Shown here piece after piece: positions 485-63,604 of a stretch of 64,000 bases of DNA. The translations under genes were made by a program, and so were the position numbers. Position 1 is the first letter of the stretch, and each line of letters opens with the position of its first letter. The stretch comes from Octopus vulgaris (lineage: Eukaryota): positions 46,004,001-46,068,000 of the forward strand of contig OX597815.1 in assembly GCA_951406725.2 (NCBI GenBank). The letters run 5' to 3'. The notes below the pieces were generated by a model. It had not been told where the DNA came from and searched no databases. It saw only the letters and a program-made list of their open reading frames with translations.

Positions 485-1548
485 CAACATACACAGCAAT
501 ATACAATTCACTATGGAACACAACAGTAAGCAACTCCCTTTTCTAGACATCTTAATGAGAATAGTTAACAACCACATAGAAACAGACATCTTTTATAAAC
601 CCACAGATTCGAAACAATACCTATTATTTAACTCCTGCCACCCCAAACACATAAAAATCAACATACCCTTTAACCTAGCAAAAAGAATCTGCACCATAGT
701 TTCCGATACATACACTCGAGAACATAGACTCCTTGAACTTAGATCTACACTAACTAAAAGACATTACCCAATCTCATTAGTAAATGAAGGCATCAAAAGA
801 GCTAAGGAAATAGATATACAAAGGTTAAGGAAAACTAGCCGAAATACTAAACAAGACTTAAAAATACTCCCGTACATCTCCGCACATAACCCCAGAAGCA
901 ACGAAGCCTTCAACATCATCACCCAAAACCTTCCCATCCTCACAGCAGACAAAACAATGAACAAAATTTTAAGCTCATATAAAATTATAAAAAGCAAAAA
1001 GCAACCCAAGTCACTGAAAAAATATTAACCAGCGCTAGACTTTACCCACTAACAATTGAGCCAAAAGGGACAAAATGTGGACGTTCTAACTGTGGAACAT
1101 ACCCCCACCTTCTGGAGGGTTCAGAATTCCAATTCAAACAAAGATAAATATTTAAGATCAAATCAAATTTCACCTGCGCCTCAGCAAATGTAATCTATGT
1201 CATGACATGCATAGGATGTGGTAAACTATATTGGACAAACAGGAATTTCGCTCCGTCAAAGAATCACCATTCACAAAGAGCAAATCCGTCACCCACAATA
1301 CAGACAGTTAAATGTGAGTGAACACATAGAAAGATGTGCCAGGAATCTTAATCTCAATTTCCAAATATTTCATTTTTACCAATGTTCACAGAACACCACA
1401 ATGCAACAAAAGTTGAATAAAGAGGCATTTTTCATTAATAAATTTCTCCCCCAACTAAATATGAACACACAACTCAATACAGAACACCACTAACTCTTCA
1501 ATTGAAACCACTAAACCCTATACACTTCCTACACCACTCACATCTCTA

Positions 1549-1608
1549 AATCCAGAACTACTTACCTCCCTTACAAATAATCCAGAACTACTTACCTCCC
1601 TTACAAAT
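1549..1608 (+). repeat. 30-bp tandem duplication
   Basis: aatccagaactacttacctcccttacaaat x2. Confidence 0.9.
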
Positions 1609-1664
1609 ACTCTTTTTTCTCAGGAACTGTTAGACCTGACACCGTGTATTAACCGGTGTTGTTC

Positions 1665-1701
1665 AAACGATGAATAATTTTGCCGAAACCATGGTTCGTT
1701 T
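1665..1701 (+). ncRNA. Degenerate hammerhead ribozyme remnant in the PLE tail
   Basis: AAACG-(ATGA)-...GCC-GAAA-CCATGG-TT-CGTTT: stem I AAACG/CGTTT and palindromic stem III are present. CTG of the core and part of stem II are missing. Confidence 0.4.
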
Positions 1702-2109
1702 TGTTCTCTTACTTTATTATCATCTTATAATCATCTCATAATAATGACTTTTATGACTCGTAGTCAATCTAAAGGTATATCTTTGTCGTTACCTGTCATA
1801 AATAACCTTTTTTCTATTTGCAATGTGCATTTTCGTTGATTTTTCATATTTTACCCTTACATTTCCACGTGTATTTTATATTTTCTTTTCGTAACATATT
1901 TCTACTATATATATATATATATATATATTTAAATACTATTGTATTTTACTCAGAAGGTATTGGAATCTTATATGTATACCATTCTGCCTAAATAATGCAT
2001 CTACAAATGCAATATTCCTGCATATCTTACAGCTATTTTCATTCCTTCACTTCACTCTCTATTTCGTATCTTATCTAAATTAACTATTGCTCACCAATTT
2101 TCTCACACC

Positions 2110-2157
2110 GTCTCCGACGAAGGGATATAATAAATATCCTGGAAACAGCTGTAAGAC
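2110..2157 (+). ncRNA. Minimal type I hammerhead motif, U4C variant, in a pLTR-like fragment (~1929-2225)
   Basis: GTCT-CCGACGA-AGGGATAT-aataa-ATATCCT-G-GAAA-CAGCTG-TA-AGAC. Confidence 0.7.
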
Positions 2158-2228
2158 CTATTTATAAATGTTCTAAAATCTTCACAGCCTTGGTTTTTTT
2201 TTATCTCATTCCGAAAAAAAAATTATAT

Positions 2229-22255: not shown

Positions 22256-23370
22256 TCAGATCATCCTATAAGTTCTGACCGAATTTTGAATAAAGAAAAC
22301 AAGTGATCAAATTTTATATTCAATTGAAATTTAATCATCAATGTACTTTCCCTGATTATCTATGACTTCCTTCCATCTATTTACAAGCTTTTTAGTCCTA
22401 TCAATATAAAACTCTTTTGGTTTCAATTTAAGAACTCTGAAATGTCAGTTTCGACCTCCTCCTGGCTTGCGAAAGTTATGTTCCCCAAATGATTCTGTAA
22501 GAATTTTTTCCCAACCAAGCTCTTCGATCTTCTGTGATGTGATCTTTGCAGTGTGGGGTCGCACATTGTCCCGATAGAACATCACTCCTTTTCGATTCCC
22601 TAAAGCGGATATTTTTTTTCTTCAAAGCTTGGTTCCCACCAGATTGAGAAAAGAACCTTTTTTCCATGAAGTTCATTCTCTGTTGGGGTTCAGCTTTTTC
22701 CCTTTTACCATACGACGTTTAACATTTCGATAGAAGATCCATTTTTCGTCACCAGTCACAAGTCTATCCAAAAAGGGTGAAATGAGTTCGCGAGAATGGA
22801 GAGAAAAGCAGATGTCAACTCAGGATTTCCGGTTGGTTTCGGACAATTCATGAGGCACTCATCTTCCAAGTTTAGGAACCTTTCCAAGTTGTTGAAGATG
22901 ACGATGAACAGTCGTATGGTTTGAACTAAGCTTTATTGCCAATTCTTCAACTGATAATGCAGGATTTTCTTCAAATAACGCCTCAAGGAGCTTATCATCA
23001 AACCCAACTGGACGTCCTGTTCGATCTTTCTCTTCAAGGCTGAAATCTCCACTTCTGAATTTTGCAAACCATCTTCTGCAAGTTCTTTCATTCACGCATT
23101 CTTTCCCATTAACTGAGTGTATACTTCGAGTCGTTTCGTACTCACAAAGCATCATGTGCCTTAAATGCTCTTTGGATACTTTTATGTTAGAAAGGGTTTT
23201 AATCAAAGAAAATTTAATTCTATTATTCTGTAAAATAATATCTAATTAGTTTAAATGTACACAAATGCATAAAAATAATTTTAAATTCAATTAGATATTC
23301 TAAGATACTATTAAATTTCATTCAATTTTTAAAACAGTTAAAATCGGACAGAACTTATGGGATGACCTGA
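22256..23370 (-). mobile_element. Mariner transposon, internally deleted, both TIRs and TA TSD
   Basis: TIRs tcagatcatcctataagttctgaccga and tcaggtcatcccataagttctgtccga, each flanked by TA. ORF remnant RRWFAKFRSGDFSLEE..R.GRP..HRHLQQLGK..*VPHEL, LVTGDEKWIFY. Confidence 0.92.
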
Positions 23371-37818: not shown

Positions 37819-38120
37819 GTGCTATGTGCTTGAAGCTCTGTCTTTATGTTTAACTTGAATAAAAAAACTAGTGTTTTATTTCACATTGTTTCCTTTCAAT
37901 ATAAGTTAAGAGCGTGTTTTTTTTACGGCACTGCCACCACTATTGTAGTGGCCTGCAGTTATTCTCAGTAATGAATGAGACGAAAGTAATTATTTCTAAC
38001 ATAAGCACGAGACTAGAAATTTGGCGGGAGGAGATAAGTCGATGGAAACTAATCTAGTATTTGACCAATTTTATGGACATCGTGAGGGTGAAACGGGGTG
38101 CTTGGGCCCAGAACATAAAA

Positions 38121-38396
38121 AATCTCCGTGACAGTAACATACTTTTTGACGTAGACAAAGAGAAAAATAATGAATCAACACCACCAGGATTAACTACATA
38201 CGCGTTTCGAGATTAAAGTGTTTAAAAATTTACTTACTTCTCTCTTCAGTGTAGTATTTCCGATTATAAAATTTGAAAGTGCTAGGGTTAAATATGCACA
38301 CGATCGAACGACACGCGAATGTAGTTAATCCTAGTCGTGTTGATTCATTGTTTTTCTCTTTGCCTACGTAAAAAGTATGTTACTGTCACGGAGATT
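38121..38396. repeat. Inverted repeat with ~90-bp arms enclosing a hammerhead
   Basis: aatctccgtgacagtaacatacttttt..cgcgt versus acgcg..aaaaagtatgttactgtcacggagatt. Confidence 0.88.
38193..38255 (-). ncRNA. Minimal type I hammerhead ribozyme, intact core
   Basis: ACTACA-CTGAAGA-GAGA...TCTC-GAAA-CGCG-TA-TGTAGT. Confidence 0.9.
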
Positions 38397-38896
38397 CTTA
38401 CAGTAGTAGAAAAGGAATTTTAAACTCCTATTTCTAAATTCGGTATGTGGTAAAGCAATTAGCTGAACCCTAATTATAATTATGCTTATAATTATAAAAT
38501 ATTTTTACCTATAAAGATTATTTTAACGTACCGATCTACTTGGTAAAATTATTAATTAATTGATTGATTAATAATTAATTAATTAATTTAATTGATAAAT
38601 TTTACCCTTTTATTATTAATGCATAGATAGATAGATTAGTTGATTGATAGACAGACGTAAGTATGAATTTGTGAACGTATTCATATAAAGGCATAGATGC
38701 ATACATACATGTAAGTATGCAGGAACTTATGAATAAATATATTCATTATATTTCTTTATAGACATGTATAGTGTGTATTTTATATATAGTGTGTATTTTA
38801 TATATTTGTAATTTTTTTTATATATCAGCTATAAATATTGAATAAATTAATGTGTACAAATGAATAATTTCAACAAGATTGAAGTTGCACCATTTA

Positions 38897-53467: not shown

Positions 53468-53502
<35 letters not shown>

Positions 53503-53628
53503 TGTATGTATGTATGTATGTATGTATGTATGTATGTATATTTATATGTATGTATATATATTATTATTAATGCTTTCAGACAGTTTTTCTAAATCAGTGA
53601 CAGTGGTTGCTGGGAAAAACATTAAATA

Positions 53629-53762
53629 GATATTCGCAAACAGGTCTCCCCAATCGAAAATCGGTGATTACCGTACGTTGACGAGCGGCAAATAGCTCGA
53701 AACTATAGTCCGTATGTATCACTTAGGTTTTCGAGAGGGGATGACCTCCCTTTGCGAATATC
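53629..53762 (+). ncRNA. Long rod-like hairpin capped by a degenerate hammerhead (53674-53714)
   Basis: Paired blocks gatattcgcaaa/tttgcgaatatc, aggtc/gacct, tcccc/gggga, tcgaaaa/ttttcga, ggtgat/atcact, tacg/cgta. Core ttgacGAGC-ggcaaata-GCTC-GAAA-CTATAG-TC. Confidence 0.75.
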
Positions 53763-54350
53763 AGAAGGACACAGACAGTGTGTCTAAAGCCAGCTGGAGA
53801 CGATGATCTCCTGGGGCTATAAGCTTCAGTAACACCCACCCCCAGTGGCTAGCCACATTCAGATGGCTAGTACACTTTACGTTATGTATATATATATATA
53901 TATACATATGAGTGCATGTATGTAGATACAGGCATACACACACACACACACGCACGCACGCACATAGTAAGGACACAAATGGATTTAAGTTTCACTTCAG
54001 ATGCGTTCTTTTTTTATGAATAATTTGATTACATTATGAAAAAATCGTGAATTAAAACAGAAAATTTAATTCGGAGAAGAAATACCCCAAGATGTGCGCT
54101 GACCTACCCATTCAGACATTATTGAAGAGAGTGAAATCATACCAAAGGTTAGCCTGCTAAAATGTCAGAGGACAATGTGTCAAAACAATCACTGGACAAT
54201 GCCACAATTAATTTATTTCTTTAAGTGACACTAATCTTAAATTTCGTACATATACTCCCGAACTGCTAAGCTACGGAAATGTAAACAAAACCACAGCGGT
54301 GGGGACGGACAAACACTGGAAAGAGACAGCGAGGGATATAATGGCATATA

Positions 54351-54575
54351 TCAGGTCATCCCATAAGTTCTGTCCGATTTTACCTTTTTTTAAAATTGAA
54401 TGAAATTTAACAGTATTTTAGAATGTCTAATGGAATTAAAAATTATTTTTATGCATTTGTGTACATTTAAATTAATTAAATATTATTTTACAGAATAATA
54501 GAATTAAAATTTCTTTGATTAAAACCCTTTTCTAACATGGAAGTATCCAAAGAGCATTTAAGGCACATAATGCTC
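54351..54575 (+). mobile_element. 5' end of mariner (same family as 22256-23370), truncated at an L1/Tx1 fragment
   Basis: TA-tcaggtcatcccataagttctgtccga...MEVSKEHLRHIML. Confidence 0.9.
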
Positions 54576-56925
54576 GTGAGGAGAGCCAACAAACATTTGA
54601 TGACTCTCATAGCCAGAAACAAGGAGATTGAGAGAGAGGATGCAATTTATGACACCAGCACCCTTAGGGTTCCGGATCATTTAATGCTAATTCGGCTACT
54701 CCTCAAAGACGTTCAGAGTGATTTCCGCACAATGTAGGAAGGCGAAACGTCCATGCCACAAAGAGGCTTTTAGCCGCTTTTCCAGAGGAACCACAACCTT
54801 ATCCGAGTCTCGGGTTACCGAGCTGCCAACAACTTCAAGAGGGTAAGTAACCCCGCTCTTTTTTCTTTTCCCAACTCTTTCGAGCCGTCATGGCGATTGT
54901 TAGAGTGGGTCGCATAAATGTTCGCGTCCTGAGGTCATCCTAAAAGTAACGTCGTTTGCTCAATGACCTCAGGTCGCTAGGTTTGGATGTGATAGCAGCC
55001 GATGAGATCAGGATTTCCGACACACGTGATATTGTACCCATTTTCGACGATTATAAGATCTACGCATCTCTTAATCGGCTTGGAGTGTGAGGCGGGGGTG
55101 GTAGTGCTGTTTAGGAAAGACCTGCATCTCGAAGTTCAGACAATCTTCCCAGAGGGTAAGTTGGTGGTCTTGGACATGAGCGACAGTGAAGGTGGTGCCT
55201 TTAGACTAGTCGCTGTTTACGTCCCCACGGGAGCGGGGTAGCCAGATCTCTTCATGTGTTTGGAGGTTTTCCATGGGAAGTGACGCACTTTTATGCTTGT
55301 GGATGACTGGACCGACATTTTGGACGCATGCCTGAATAGGGTGGGGCTAGCTGACAGGAGTGGGAAGTAATAGCCTAACAAACCTGCTCAGTCACTTCCA
55401 GTTGGCTGACAGGTACCAACTGAATTTCCCGAATGCGCCAATGTCGACATGGGCAAACCGCATCGGGTTTTCCAGATCGTATATAGATAATTTTGTAAGC
55501 TTGTTGATAGAAGTAGTATAAATTGTCCACGTTTCAAAATCATTGGCTACACGAACCATAAATTTGTGATCTGTACGGTTGACATAGATAGGATCTATAG
55601 ACAGGGCCCAGGATACTGGAAGTTGAATGCGTCCTTCCCGGTGCGCCAAGCTTTCAGAAACTGGGTTAGCAAGTTAGTCCAATCGCCAACAACGGATGGT
55701 GGATAACCCTGAAAAGGGCTATTAGAGTAGAGGCAGTAGGTTTTAGTAAGGAAATAGCGTTAGTGGAATGTAGGATAGAGAGAGATCTAGTTAAGAAGCT
55801 AGAAGAGGCGTTTAGGAAAGGCATAGCGACAGACGTGCTAGTGGTGAGATTGGCTTTTGATCAACTCTTCAATGTCAAGCACGAAAATTTAGTTGTCAGA
55901 GCTAGGGTGCGTGCACTGAGACGGGAGGGGACGAAAGCCGTTCGATGGGTCCGGGTGGCAGAGGCGCTACATGGAAAGAAAGCAACAATTCGGTCTTTAG
56001 CAAGCTGTGATGGGAGCATGACAACCGAGTCCAAGCAGATGTGTGCGGAATTTCAACGGCACTTCGCCGAACTGTATGTGGCACGCAGTGGTTCTGGCAT
56101 GGTGGTGGATTTCACTTCCTAGCTCAGTGGAATGCCGTGCCTCTCAGCTAGGGATGCAGAGTTCTGCGAAGTGCTGATAACAGCTGAAGATGACAAGCTA
56201 CGAAATAAAGAAGTCTCCCGTACGGGATGGTCTGCCCTTCGAGCTTTATTTTCATATACAGCAAAATGGGAGAATTCCCAACGCCGTGAGCCTTGGAGTT
56301 GTGGTGTTGTTGAGGAAGGACCCGAACAAGGGGGACAAAATTGATAATTTTAGGCCTAGAACTCTGCTGAATGCAGATTCTAAAATTTTGGCTAAGGTGT
56401 TAGCCAAGAGGTTGGCGCTTGTCGTCGATAAGTTAGTTGGTAACGCACAGATATGCTCGGCACCTTCAGAGGCAGGTCCATGCCAACCGACAGCGTTGTA
56501 GGGCACTGGACAGAAGGACCTGTTAAATTGCTCAGTGTTTGGTTTGGTCCAGACCCCCAGGTGGACAAGAACCGGGAGGGAGAGGAGATGGGCAGGGTGG
56601 CCAATCTCACTTAGAAATGGGCAAAGTGGAAGCTGTCTCTGAATGGCCAGGCGGAGGTGGCGAATGTGTAAATCGCTTTCGTCCTCTACTACCACCTGAC
56701 CGTCTTCCCTTGCCCCAATTCGTGCCTGATATGGTTGGAACGCTTACTCTTCTACTTTCTATGGAAGGGATGTGTTCTGCTCGTTAGAGGATCTGTCTAC
56801 TGTCAACCACCGCTGAGTAGAGGACTGGGCATGATGTGGCTAATGATGCACAGACATGCGCTGAGACTGCGACATCTGCAGCGTTTCCTTAACTGTGAGC
56901 AGTTGTGGTCGCCGTTCGTCACATG
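54576..56925 (+). mobile_element. Decayed L1/Tx1-clade LINE (APE endonuclease + partial RT)
   Basis: From 54890 MAIVRVGRINVRVL..DVIAADEI, GVVVLF, FRLVAVYVP, PGYWKLNAS; RT start KSPVRDGLPFELY..NFRPRTLLNADSKILAKVLAKRL; LLFYFLWKG..RGLG. Confidence 0.9.
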
Positions 56926-57319
56926 GTTGCAAAATGAGCTTCTTAACAACTCGGCCATTTTCTTTACATATATTTCTGTATTCTTTTCTTCTCTCTTTCA
57001 TATTATATTTCGTCTTTACTTGTATTTTGCGTTTCTTTCCCCTTCAGTTTATACATTTCATTCTTTCGTTCTTTCAAAATATATCAGTATTTCTAATATT
57101 TTTCGTTTTCTTATATTTTCTTATATTTAAGCTTTTGCACGTTTGTTCTTAAATATTATCTCCACGTTGATTTGTCTAAATTTTTTCTTTTTTGTCATCT
57201 ATGTAGATAGTCAGTTATTCATTCTTTAACATTTCTCTGTAGCTTTACATTTTTCCTTGTATTTTCTTTTAATTCATGTACATACATACACACACATGCA
57301 CACATGCATGTATGTATAA

Positions 57320-62806: not shown

Positions 62807-63604
62807 GGATCTTTTCCTTTCGAACGCCACTTTGTAACATAATTTCTAGGTAACTAAAAAGTTTTAAACTTCGTATACTGGTAGAATGTGTTTATAAAAC
62901 ATCATTTTCTCTTGGCTTTATTGAGAAAATTCTATAGGTTGTAAGATATTTCGTCTTTAATTTCGAGCATTTCGGCAATTTTAACCAATCGCTGACCTCC
63001 ATTTAGGTAAATAACATTCTGTGCATAATGAATATGTCCCTCCTTTAAGAAACAGATTGGGTTTATTTACATTTGTGAAGAAAAAAAGATACCCTTACCC
63101 AACCCCTAACCCTAACCATAGTAACCCTAAATCTAAAATAGATTGAAATGCAATAGATCGATACTAGGGTCATAATTATGGGTGACATTTTCATTTGACA
63201 CCGCTAGAAAAAATCCCATTTTCCGTAGCGGTGTCGTATGAAATTGTCACCCATAATTATAACCCTAGCATCGATCTATTGCATTTCAATTTATTTTAGA
63301 TTTAGGGTTAGAGTTAGGGTTAGGGTTACATTCATAAATGTAAATAAACCTAATCTGTTTCTTAAAGGAGGGACATATTCATTATGCACAGAATGTTATT
63401 TACCTAAATGGAGGTCAGCGATTGGTTAAAATTGCCGAAATGCTCGAAATTTCAGACGAAATATCTTACAACATGTACAATTTTCTCAATAAAGCCAAGA
63501 AAAAAATGATGTTTTATAAACACATTCTACCAGTATACGAAGTTTAAAAGTGTTTAGTTAACTAGAAATTGTGTTGAAAAGTGCCGTTCAAGAGGAAAAG
63601 ATCC
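62807..63604. mobile_element. ~800-bp foldback (palindromic) DNA transposon with 8-bp TSD, inserted in a SINE B copy
   Basis: GGATCTTTTCC...GGAAAAGATCC termini; ~390-bp arms meet near 63212; TSD tcaacctt / ttaacctt; internal (CCCTAA)/(TTAGGG) repeats. Confidence 0.9.

What the first reader, a model, noticed from the sequence alone, without database searches (positions are those of the whole stretch)
53598..53880. Highly structured ~280-nt element: viroid-like rod tipped by a hammerhead plus extra hairpins
Seen: ~40 bp of interrupted pairing (53629-53762) extends hammerhead stem I, with a GUC site and ACTATAGT stem III. Downstream hairpins are GACAC/GTGTC, GGAGA/TCTCC and CTAGCC/GGCTAG, with possible closure gctggg/cccagt. 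The CUGANGA core is damaged in this copy. It is a GC-richer island between microsatellites. Inference: relic of a compact, self-complementary ribozyme RNA family distinct from the other hammerheads here.
Basis: partly seen in the sequence, partly recalled or inferred. Interest (0 to 1): 0.7.

Follow-up and report, generated by a model that had tools for sequence, protein, structure and literature searches.

The report
Damaged hammerhead retrozyme copy, probably octopus
A 320-base, strongly folding non-coding stretch with a damaged hammerhead (self-cutting RNA) motif is one copy of a many-copy repeat family that is likely a retrozyme, a small parasitic retroelement already known from other animals; here it has an unusual core base, and whether it cuts is untested.

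Summary
The fold is real: z -7.9, 0 of 200 shuffles; a 43-bp rod tipped by a type I hammerhead (weak Rfam HH9 hit). The element is wider than reported (53564-53883) and sits inside a TATG/TA microsatellite. In four public runs 96-1567 contigs lay on it, so it is a many-copy family. Family letters restore a 4-bp stem II, so this copy's own damage is in stem II. The core U at position 3 looks family-wide and comes with A8 in 48-64% of depth: a U3-A8 swap of the C3-G8 pair, known in nature. In one run, loose ends at the two termini overlap by 14 letters, implying a ~355-nt head-to-tail or circular unit. In another, 12 contigs also run into (AT)n at this 3' end. Best reading (0.6): a likely dead solo monomer of a non-LTR retrozyme family moved by Penelope-like elements; not a viroid. 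Cleavage, circular RNA, tandem arrays and host (probably octopus) are not shown. Less usual features: the U3 core in a canonical, tertiary-loop hammerhead, and a shared 3' module with a recurring end, which could point to the unknown mobilising partner.

The parts
53564..53883 (+). Whole inserted copy: about 320 of an inferred ~355-nt non-coding unit
   Evidence: Loose ends of relatives begin before 53564 and behind 53883 (table 7); longest stop-free frame 42 codons
53469..53563 (.). Left flank: (TATG)n/(TA)n microsatellite, inferred insertion target
   Evidence: TRF 53469-53559; a 17-nt near-repeat with the right flank
53564..53628 (+).
   Evidence: Covered by relatives in all four runs (table 2); folds; inverted repeat I12
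53629..53762 (+). Rod of 43 bp (five helices plus stem I) that carries the hammerhead at its tip
   Evidence: z -9.09; helix list; partner changes at 53635/53756 and 53650/53738 seen through a loose end and table 3
53663..53723 (+). Type I hammerhead: distal helix, UAC/U internal loop, stem I 53672-77/53711-16, core UUGACGA 53678-84, stem II 53685-88/53695-98 (2 of 4 pairs broken here), loop CAAAUA, GAAA 53699-702, palindromic stem III, predicted cut after C53710
   Evidence: Rfam HH9 alignment; descriptor match, 0 of 100 shuffles; register test; family letters
53767..53876 (+). 3' module of three hairpins (53767-85; 53788-818; 53844-76); its first half is the most deeply covered part of the family
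   Evidence: Folds; double change 53769/53783; depth at 53778-53821 is 16-32 times that of the core
53884..53905 (.). Right flank: (TA)n microsatellite, then CA repeats
   Evidence: Sequence; 12 contigs of X1 also run into (AT)n at this end

Best explanation
This is a single, likely dead genomic copy of a many-copy, non-coding repeat family with a type I hammerhead, most likely a non-LTR retrozyme of about 355 nt (unit length inferred) that would be cut from tandem transcripts and would be copied into TA-rich microsatellites by the reverse transcriptase and endonuclease of a Penelope-like element. Shown: the fold, the hammerhead anatomy, many related sequences, family letters that restore stem II, U at core position 3 with A or G at position 8, a run-on from the 3' end into the piece preceding the 5' end in one run, and a 3' end at (AT)n in other copies. 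Inferred: read-through transcription of tandem copies, cleavage after GUC (probably helped by two hammerheads pairing through the palindromic stem III), ligation to a circle, and Penelope-driven insertion. In this copy two private changes break stem II and create a shifted 4-bp helix, predicted at 0.99, that buries G8 and A9; with U3 facing G8 and no second unit beside it, it is predicted not to cleave.
For: Many copies: 1222, 1567, 163 and 96 contigs laid in X1, X2, X10, X14; 20 of 24 listed runs, 9 studies, hold part of it. Stem II: 53686 C>A in 99-100% and 53695 G>C in 79-100% of depth in all four runs give four Watson-Crick pairs; in this copy the hammerhead register has probability 0 and the shifted one 0.99. 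The stem III palindrome changes by a double step, 53705 A>G with 53706 T>C at matching depths in all four runs; hairpin pair 53769/53783 changes A-U to G-C in 58-95% of depth. By hand count, 16 of 20 variant letters at paired positions are compatible with pairing (13 with the window partner, 1 with a listed partner change, 2 with a partner seen in a loose end). Architecture equals the canonical metazoan type I hammerhead described in PMC4209133 (6-bp helix I, 4-bp helix II, short palindromic helix III). Junction: X14 loose ends behind 53883 (2 contigs, median 37 letters) and before 53564 (4 contigs) overlap by 14 letters, leaving 35 letters between, unit about 355 nt; mussel units are 350-390 (PMC7229834). 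X2 has 15 contigs whose consensus starts with the same first 16 letters. Penelope signature: 12 X1 contigs run into (AT)n at this 3' end; a 30-40 bp tail and (TA)n targeting are described for such elements (PMC8557442 passages); a Penelope relic with its own hammerhead lies between TA repeats at 486-2223 of this window.
Against: No tandem array was seen: the window holds one copy, and table 5 lists no contig that goes back from end to start (its only joint is an internal skip in X10). The junction rests on loose ends of 6 contigs of one run whose RNA label is a guess. No listed piece spans the whole unit, so phase is inferred from depths. U3 departs from the consensus; 36-52% of depth keeps G8 (a U-G wobble), and a full double-mutant scan of a type III hammerhead found only the G-C swap active at this pair (PMC9901934 passage). 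G10.1-C11.1 is G-U in 29-89% of depth. Four of 20 variant letters break pairs, and about half of transitions would keep a pair by chance, so this is no formal covariation test. In Xenopus 8 of 9 predicted retrozyme dimers did not cleave (preprint 10.64898/2026.07.22.740005). The 3' end of the window's own Penelope relic shows no similarity to the element. GC of 47% is above the '<45%' of PMC7229834 though below the '50%' of PMC7761336.
Confidence: 0.6

Rival explanations
1. Solo pseudo-LTR, the 3'-terminal piece of a longer autonomous Penelope-like element left by 5' truncation; no small circle of its own.
For: Recurring 3' end at (AT)n, depth 16-32 times higher in the 3' module than at the core, different upstream sequences joining at 53765-66 (15, 10 and 13 contigs), and a 35-letter missing piece the size of a Penelope tail. 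Retrozymes themselves are proposed to derive from pLTRs, so the two readings grade into each other.
Against: The 3' end runs on into the piece before this unit's own 5' part in X14, which a multi-kilobase element would not do. Penelope hammerheads are mostly minimal, with an extra base after A9 and no tertiary loops, like the one at 2110-2154, whereas this one is canonical. No coding remnant adjoins it.
Confidence: 0.2
2. A retrozyme-derived family whose hammerhead has become vestigial: U3 cripples cleavage, and copies spread only through the 3' module, as a SINE-like passenger of Penelope enzymes.
For: U3 appears family-wide and G8 persists in 36-52% of depth; low activity of all but the G-C swap in one construct; the 3' module is far deeper than the hammerhead.
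Against: Stem II, the GAAA/GUC core and a covarying stem III palindrome are kept; A8 restores a Watson-Crick pair; by depth and end-distance arithmetic one X10 contig carries A8, C at 53695 and the G-C palindrome together; U3-A8 is reported active in vitro.
Confidence: 0.14
3. A conventional polymerase III SINE that carries a hammerhead, like schistosome Sm-alpha, moved as a linear RNA by a LINE.
For: 3'-biased depth and a recurring 3' end fit target-primed insertion; the O. vulgaris annotation lists 893 recently active 'unclassified SINE' families (PMC13282606).
Against: No tRNA gene in the window, no Rfam tRNA, 5S or 7SL match in the element, no poly(A) tail, and the end-to-start run-on.
Confidence: 0.04
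4. An endogenised viroid-like replicon that copies itself RNA to RNA.
For: Rod-like fold on both strands.
Against: Hammerhead on one polarity only; more than a thousand related contigs in each DNA-type run; no match in viral contigs.
Confidence: 0.02

Closest known systems
Metazoan non-LTR retrozymes (Cervera and de la Pena 2020, PMC7229834: passages, sections 14 and 17 read, supplement unreadable; review PMC7761336: passages; Li, Clavereau and Pollet 2026 preprint 10.64898/2026.07.22.740005: parts 1-3 of 5 read)
   Same: Canonical type I hammerhead, short palindromic helix III, non-coding self-paired unit of similar size (mussel 350-390 nt), many copies, dispersed solo monomers, co-occurrence with Penelope-like elements.
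   Different: U at core position 3 with A8 or G8; a long uninterrupted rod under the hammerhead; a shared 3' module with a recurring end in TA microsatellite (PMC7761336 says retrozyme repeats show no conserved motif pointing to a partner). Tandem arrays, cleavage and circles are not shown here. No cephalopod example was found in my searches.
Hammerheads in pseudo-LTRs of Penelope-like elements (PMC4209133: parts 1-2 of 4 and two supplements searched; PMC8557442: passages)
   Same: Type I topology, palindromic helix III, U3-A8 core reported in S. mansoni Cercyon-related motifs, microsatellite targets, 30-40 bp tail.
   Different: Those are mostly minimal motifs with a long helix II, an extra base after A9 and no tertiary loops, attached to an RT/GIY-YIG ORF; this one has a 4-bp helix II, a 6-nt loop and an internal loop in helix I, and no ORF.
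Rfam Hammerhead_HH9 (RF02275) and the schistosome Sm-alpha hammerhead
   Same: UUACC internal-loop motif and CAAA-A loop 2 align with the HH9 consensus; that Sm-alpha has the loop CAAAUA is recalled, from no call.
   Different: Score 28 against a gathering score of 52; HH9 motifs are isolated conserved intronic copies in amniotes (PMC6155905 passage), not a many-copy repeat.

Membership tests
Type I hammerhead ribozyme | Three helices around the core with helix I open-ended | tested here: met
   stem II complete only with family letters, broken in this copy
Type I hammerhead ribozyme | Core CUGANGA ... GAAA ... UH with a 3-8 Watson-Crick pair | tested here: inconclusive
   This copy has U3 with G8 (not met). 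Family: A8 in 48-64% of depth; no row for 53678 among 40 of 47 variant rows shown, and none can be hidden for X14 by the per-kind tally
Type I hammerhead ribozyme | Self-cleavage after the UH site | not testable with these tools
   Needs in vitro transcription; only contigs were available
Non-LTR retrozyme | Unit of about 150-400 nt in head-to-tail repeats, one hammerhead per unit | tested here: inconclusive
   14-letter overlap of terminal loose ends in X14 implies ~355 nt; no array in the window; no back-joint in table 5
Non-LTR retrozyme | Non-coding, no LTR pair, self-paired | tested here: met
   Longest stop-free frame 42 codons; no long direct repeats; z -7.9
Non-LTR retrozyme | Many genomic copies, in a genome that also holds Penelope-like elements | tested here: met
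   relic at 486-2223 whose relatives carry PF26215, PF01541 and PF00078
Non-LTR retrozyme | Accumulation as circular RNA | not testable with these tools
   Only contigs were laid; they cannot show ends, strand or level
Penelope-like element pseudo-LTR | Continuity with an RT plus GIY-YIG ORF | tested here: not met
   For this copy no such ORF or remnant adjoins; other copies could not be followed
Penelope-like element pseudo-LTR | Minimal hammerhead with an extra base after A9 and a long helix II | tested here: not met
   4-bp helix II directly after A9
Viroid or viroid-like replicon | Ribozymes in both polarities, no DNA phase | tested here: not met
   No minus-strand hammerhead in the element; abundant in DNA-type runs
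tRNA-, 5S- or 7SL-derived SINE | Polymerase III RNA-derived head | tested here: not met
   ARAGORN 0 genes; no such Rfam match; A/B boxes not scanned separately

The most novel reading that the evidence does not exclude
A cephalopod retrozyme superfamily in which diverged hammerhead rods, running on a U3-A8 core, are plugged onto one conserved three-hairpin 3' module that serves as the recognition and priming signal for a microsatellite-targeting Penelope enzyme. Unit-length monomers lacking a 35-nt tail are inserted at a defined end, and one subfamily with a G-C stem III palindrome is selectively present as circular RNA (0.5% of depth in a DNA-type run, 88-91% in two RNA-type runs under the same organism label). 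This would expose the missing link between animal retrozymes and their mobilising partner.
Probability: 0.25. Interest if true: 0.62.

Novelty: new variant of a known kind. Interest (0 to 1): 0.4.

Why it matters
Animal retrozymes are known, but their mobilising partner is only proposed (PMC7229834, PMC7761336, the 2026 preprint). A family with a shared 3' module, a recurring 3' end in TA microsatellite and a tail-sized missing piece gives a direct handle: one assembly search for autonomous elements that share the module would test the Penelope hypothesis. The mix of U3-A8 and U3-G8 cores in one family is also a natural series for how the 3-8 pair of a tertiary-stabilised hammerhead can be swapped. 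This copy itself is most likely inert.

Tried and rejected
No whole genome is held, so no copies could be collected and no alignment, covariance model or R-scape-type test was possible. Pattern scans gave 0 hits in metagenome contigs with a 27-letter pattern and 0 in viral contigs. A gapped pattern gave 4 metagenome and 4 prokaryote loci with no convincing similarity beyond the pattern (best extra match 33 letters, E 5e-4, in L003); I treated them as chance. No second copy and no junction motif in the window. Pairing of the 16-letter run-on piece with the element (-15.2 kcal/mol) is no better than shuffles, p 0.29: rejected as evidence. Likeness of the X2 run-on to 53602-53625, p 0.285: rejected. 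The shifted stem II register as the true family structure: rejected, because family letters give 4 of 4 pairs in the hammerhead register, and depth sums in X10 and X14 put A at 53683 with C at 53698 in the same contigs. CpG decay as the sole cause of G8>A: not favoured, since no variant row is shown at 7 of the other 12 CpG sites, though not excluded. No RNA holder listed on record. Depth profiles of RNA-type and DNA-type runs correlate (Spearman 0.81-0.86), but contigs cannot show expression, so this is used neither way. The sigma-70 promoter scan is not meant for animals and was at chance level. Host: hits to the window's transposon relics are named from Octopus, with better mariner hits from Limulus, so the host is not settled; a cluster look-up could not be made. 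The primary paper on 3-8 exchanges (PMC1986816) is not held, and the supplement of PMC7229834 could not be read; it may list cephalopod or U3 examples. Not-in-print statements rest on searches, supplement searches, and look-ups of earlier scan notes.

Full report
Observation. The stretch folds far better than chance: -111.2 kcal/mol, z -7.90, 0 of 200 shuffles, and better than all 71 GC-matched windows elsewhere in the 64 kb (best -103.5). Most of the signal is the rod 53629-53762 (z -9.09); the 3' hairpins add z -2.40, and the hammerhead alone is unremarkable (z -1.07). The rod has 43 pairs including stem I. Rfam finds Hammerhead_HH9 at 53660-53732, 28 bits, under the gathering score of 52, and a motif of core, CAAATA loop and GAAAC matches once in the window and in 0 of 100 shuffles.

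The family. No genome is held, and public collections gave nothing. I therefore laid four public runs, all contigs, on 53558-53886 at 80% likeness, chosen from 24 listed runs of which 20, in 9 studies, hold part of it. 1222, 1567, 163 and 96 contigs were laid in X1, X2 (DNA-type) and X10, X14 (RNA-type; the label is a guess). All 30 bins are covered in all runs. Summed depth is no copy number, but so many differing contigs show a many-copy family. No listed contig spans the unit; 40 of 47 variant rows and 24 of 277 loose ends were shown.

What is damaged and what is not. 53686 reads A in 99-100% and 53695 reads C in 79-100% of depth in all four runs, which gives four Watson-Crick pairs in stem II around CAAAUA. 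This copy has both changed; only 2 of 4 pairs remain, and a helix shifted by two bases, which takes in G8 and A9, has probability 0.99. Core position 3 (T53678) has no variant row. The per-kind tallies leave at most 1, 1, 2 and 0 unlisted T>C places in X1, X2, X10 and X14 (hand count), so in X14 it cannot be hidden, and a loose end in X2 also shows TT there. Position 8 (53683) is A in 64, 59, 48 and 53% of depth. So the family core is most likely U3 with A8 or G8. By depth sums and distances to contig ends, X10 record 10 carries A8, C at 53695 and C at 53706 in one contig; this phase is inferred. U3-A8 is a natural covariation, reported active in vitro (PMC3088659 passage) and found in about 1300 S. 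mansoni Penelope-type motifs (PMC4209133). Against: a complete double-mutant scan of a type III hammerhead found only the G-C swap active at this pair (PMC9901934 passage), and G10.1 faces U in 29-89% of depth.

Structure under selection. The stem III palindrome changes by a paired double step (53705 A>G, 53706 T>C, matching depths in four runs), as expected if two hammerheads pair through it (dimer model: PMC4209133; PMC6765202 passage). Hairpin pair 53769/53783 switches from A-U to G-C. Rod changes 53756 G>A and 53738 G>A find their partner T in an X1 loose end. By hand, 16 of 20 variant letters at paired positions are compatible with pairing and 4 break it (with stem II in hammerhead register). 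About half of transitions would pass by chance, so only the double changes carry weight; this is not a formal covariation test.

Ends. Relatives leave the window's sequence before 53564 and behind 53883, so the copy is 320 nt, wider than reported. In X14 the loose end behind 53883 (2 contigs, median 37 letters) and the one before 53564 (4 contigs) overlap by 14 exact letters (about 4e-9 per offset by chance), leaving 35 letters between: a head-to-tail or circular unit of about 355 nt. Fifteen X2 contigs start their run-on, by consensus, with the same 16 letters and then differ. Contigs cannot tell tandem DNA from circular RNA, and table 5 lists no back-joint, so this is support from one run, not proof. 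Twelve X1 contigs run at this 3' end into (AT)n and then differing flanks (agreement 0.55), and the window copy lies between near-identical TATG/TA repeats. Depth at 53778-53821 is 16-32 times that of the core, and other upstream sequences join at 53765-66, so the 3' module is shared by diverged subfamilies, or kept by 5' truncation, or both.

Mechanism. Most likely (0.6): tandem copies are read through, hammerheads cut after GUC, monomers are ligated to circles, and a Penelope-type reverse transcriptase and endonuclease insert copies at TA repeats. This follows the published model for non-LTR retrozymes (PMC7229834 sections 14 and 17; PMC7761336 passages; 2026 preprint parts 1-3, which also describes dispersed solo monomers). 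TA targeting and a 30-40 bp tail are Penelope traits (PMC8557442 passages), and a Penelope relic with its own, different hammerhead sits between TA repeats in this window, though its 3' end does not resemble the element. Every step from transcription to insertion is inferred. Rivals: solo pseudo-LTR (0.2), vestigial ribozyme riding on the 3' module (0.14), hammerhead SINE (0.04), viroid-like replicon (0.02).

Host. Probably an octopus: 36% GC, dense microsatellites, transposon relics with Octopus-named relatives, and SINE-like stretches I recall from octopus genomes (no call). Limulus hits score higher for the mariner, so this is not shown.

Novelty. The kind is known. I found no cephalopod retrozyme and no U3 core in a canonical retrozyme hammerhead in ten literature searches. 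The O. vulgaris repeat annotation does not mention ribozymes in the two of three text parts read or in its supplement, and the giant squid paper only counts 235 Rfam hammerhead hits (PMC6962438 passage). The unreadable supplement of PMC7229834 may bear on this. Earlier scan notes hold no look-alike; two notes from other genomes describe similar elements and were not tested. Verdict: a new variant of a known kind, interest 0.4; its value lies in the U3 core series and in the shared 3' module as a route to the mobilising partner.

Noticed in passing
window 486-2223 (+): 5'-truncated, frameshifted Penelope-like relic (RT end, two-CxxC linker, GIY-YIG remnants) between (TA)n and (TACA)n/(TA)n; relatives carry PF26215, PF01541, PF00078.
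   Followed up: partly
window 2110-2154 (+): Atypical type I hammerhead in that relic's 3' end: core CCGACGA (U4C), extra base after A9, long stem II, palindromic stem III, UA site; no Rfam hammerhead match.
   Followed up: partly
window 62807-63604: Near-perfect ~800-bp foldback (arms 90-95% complementary) containing TTAGGG-like repeats; probably a MITE or foldback element.
   Followed up: no
window 38118-38399: ~280-bp element with 89-97% complementary terminal inverted arms, MITE-like; contains a chance-looking hammerhead descriptor hit at 38249(-).
   Followed up: no
window about 54540-56950 (+): Decayed LINE relic; relatives of one fragment carry endonuclease PF03372 and RT PF00078.
   Followed up: partly
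window 22859-23245 (-): Mariner transposase fragment (PF17906, E 4.5e-13), with named relatives in Limulus and Octopus.
   Followed up: partly
window 53705-53706 and 53714-53715: The subfamily with the G-C stem III palindrome is 0.5% of depth in X2 (DNA-type) but 91% and 88% in X10 and X14 (RNA-type guess, same organism label, other studies), and 29% in X1 (other label). Possible selective expression; different individuals and contig filters could also explain it.
   Followed up: partly
window 53772-53857, run X10: One contig skips 84 bases of the 3' module with 4 letters between (table 5): a deletion variant.
   Followed up: no
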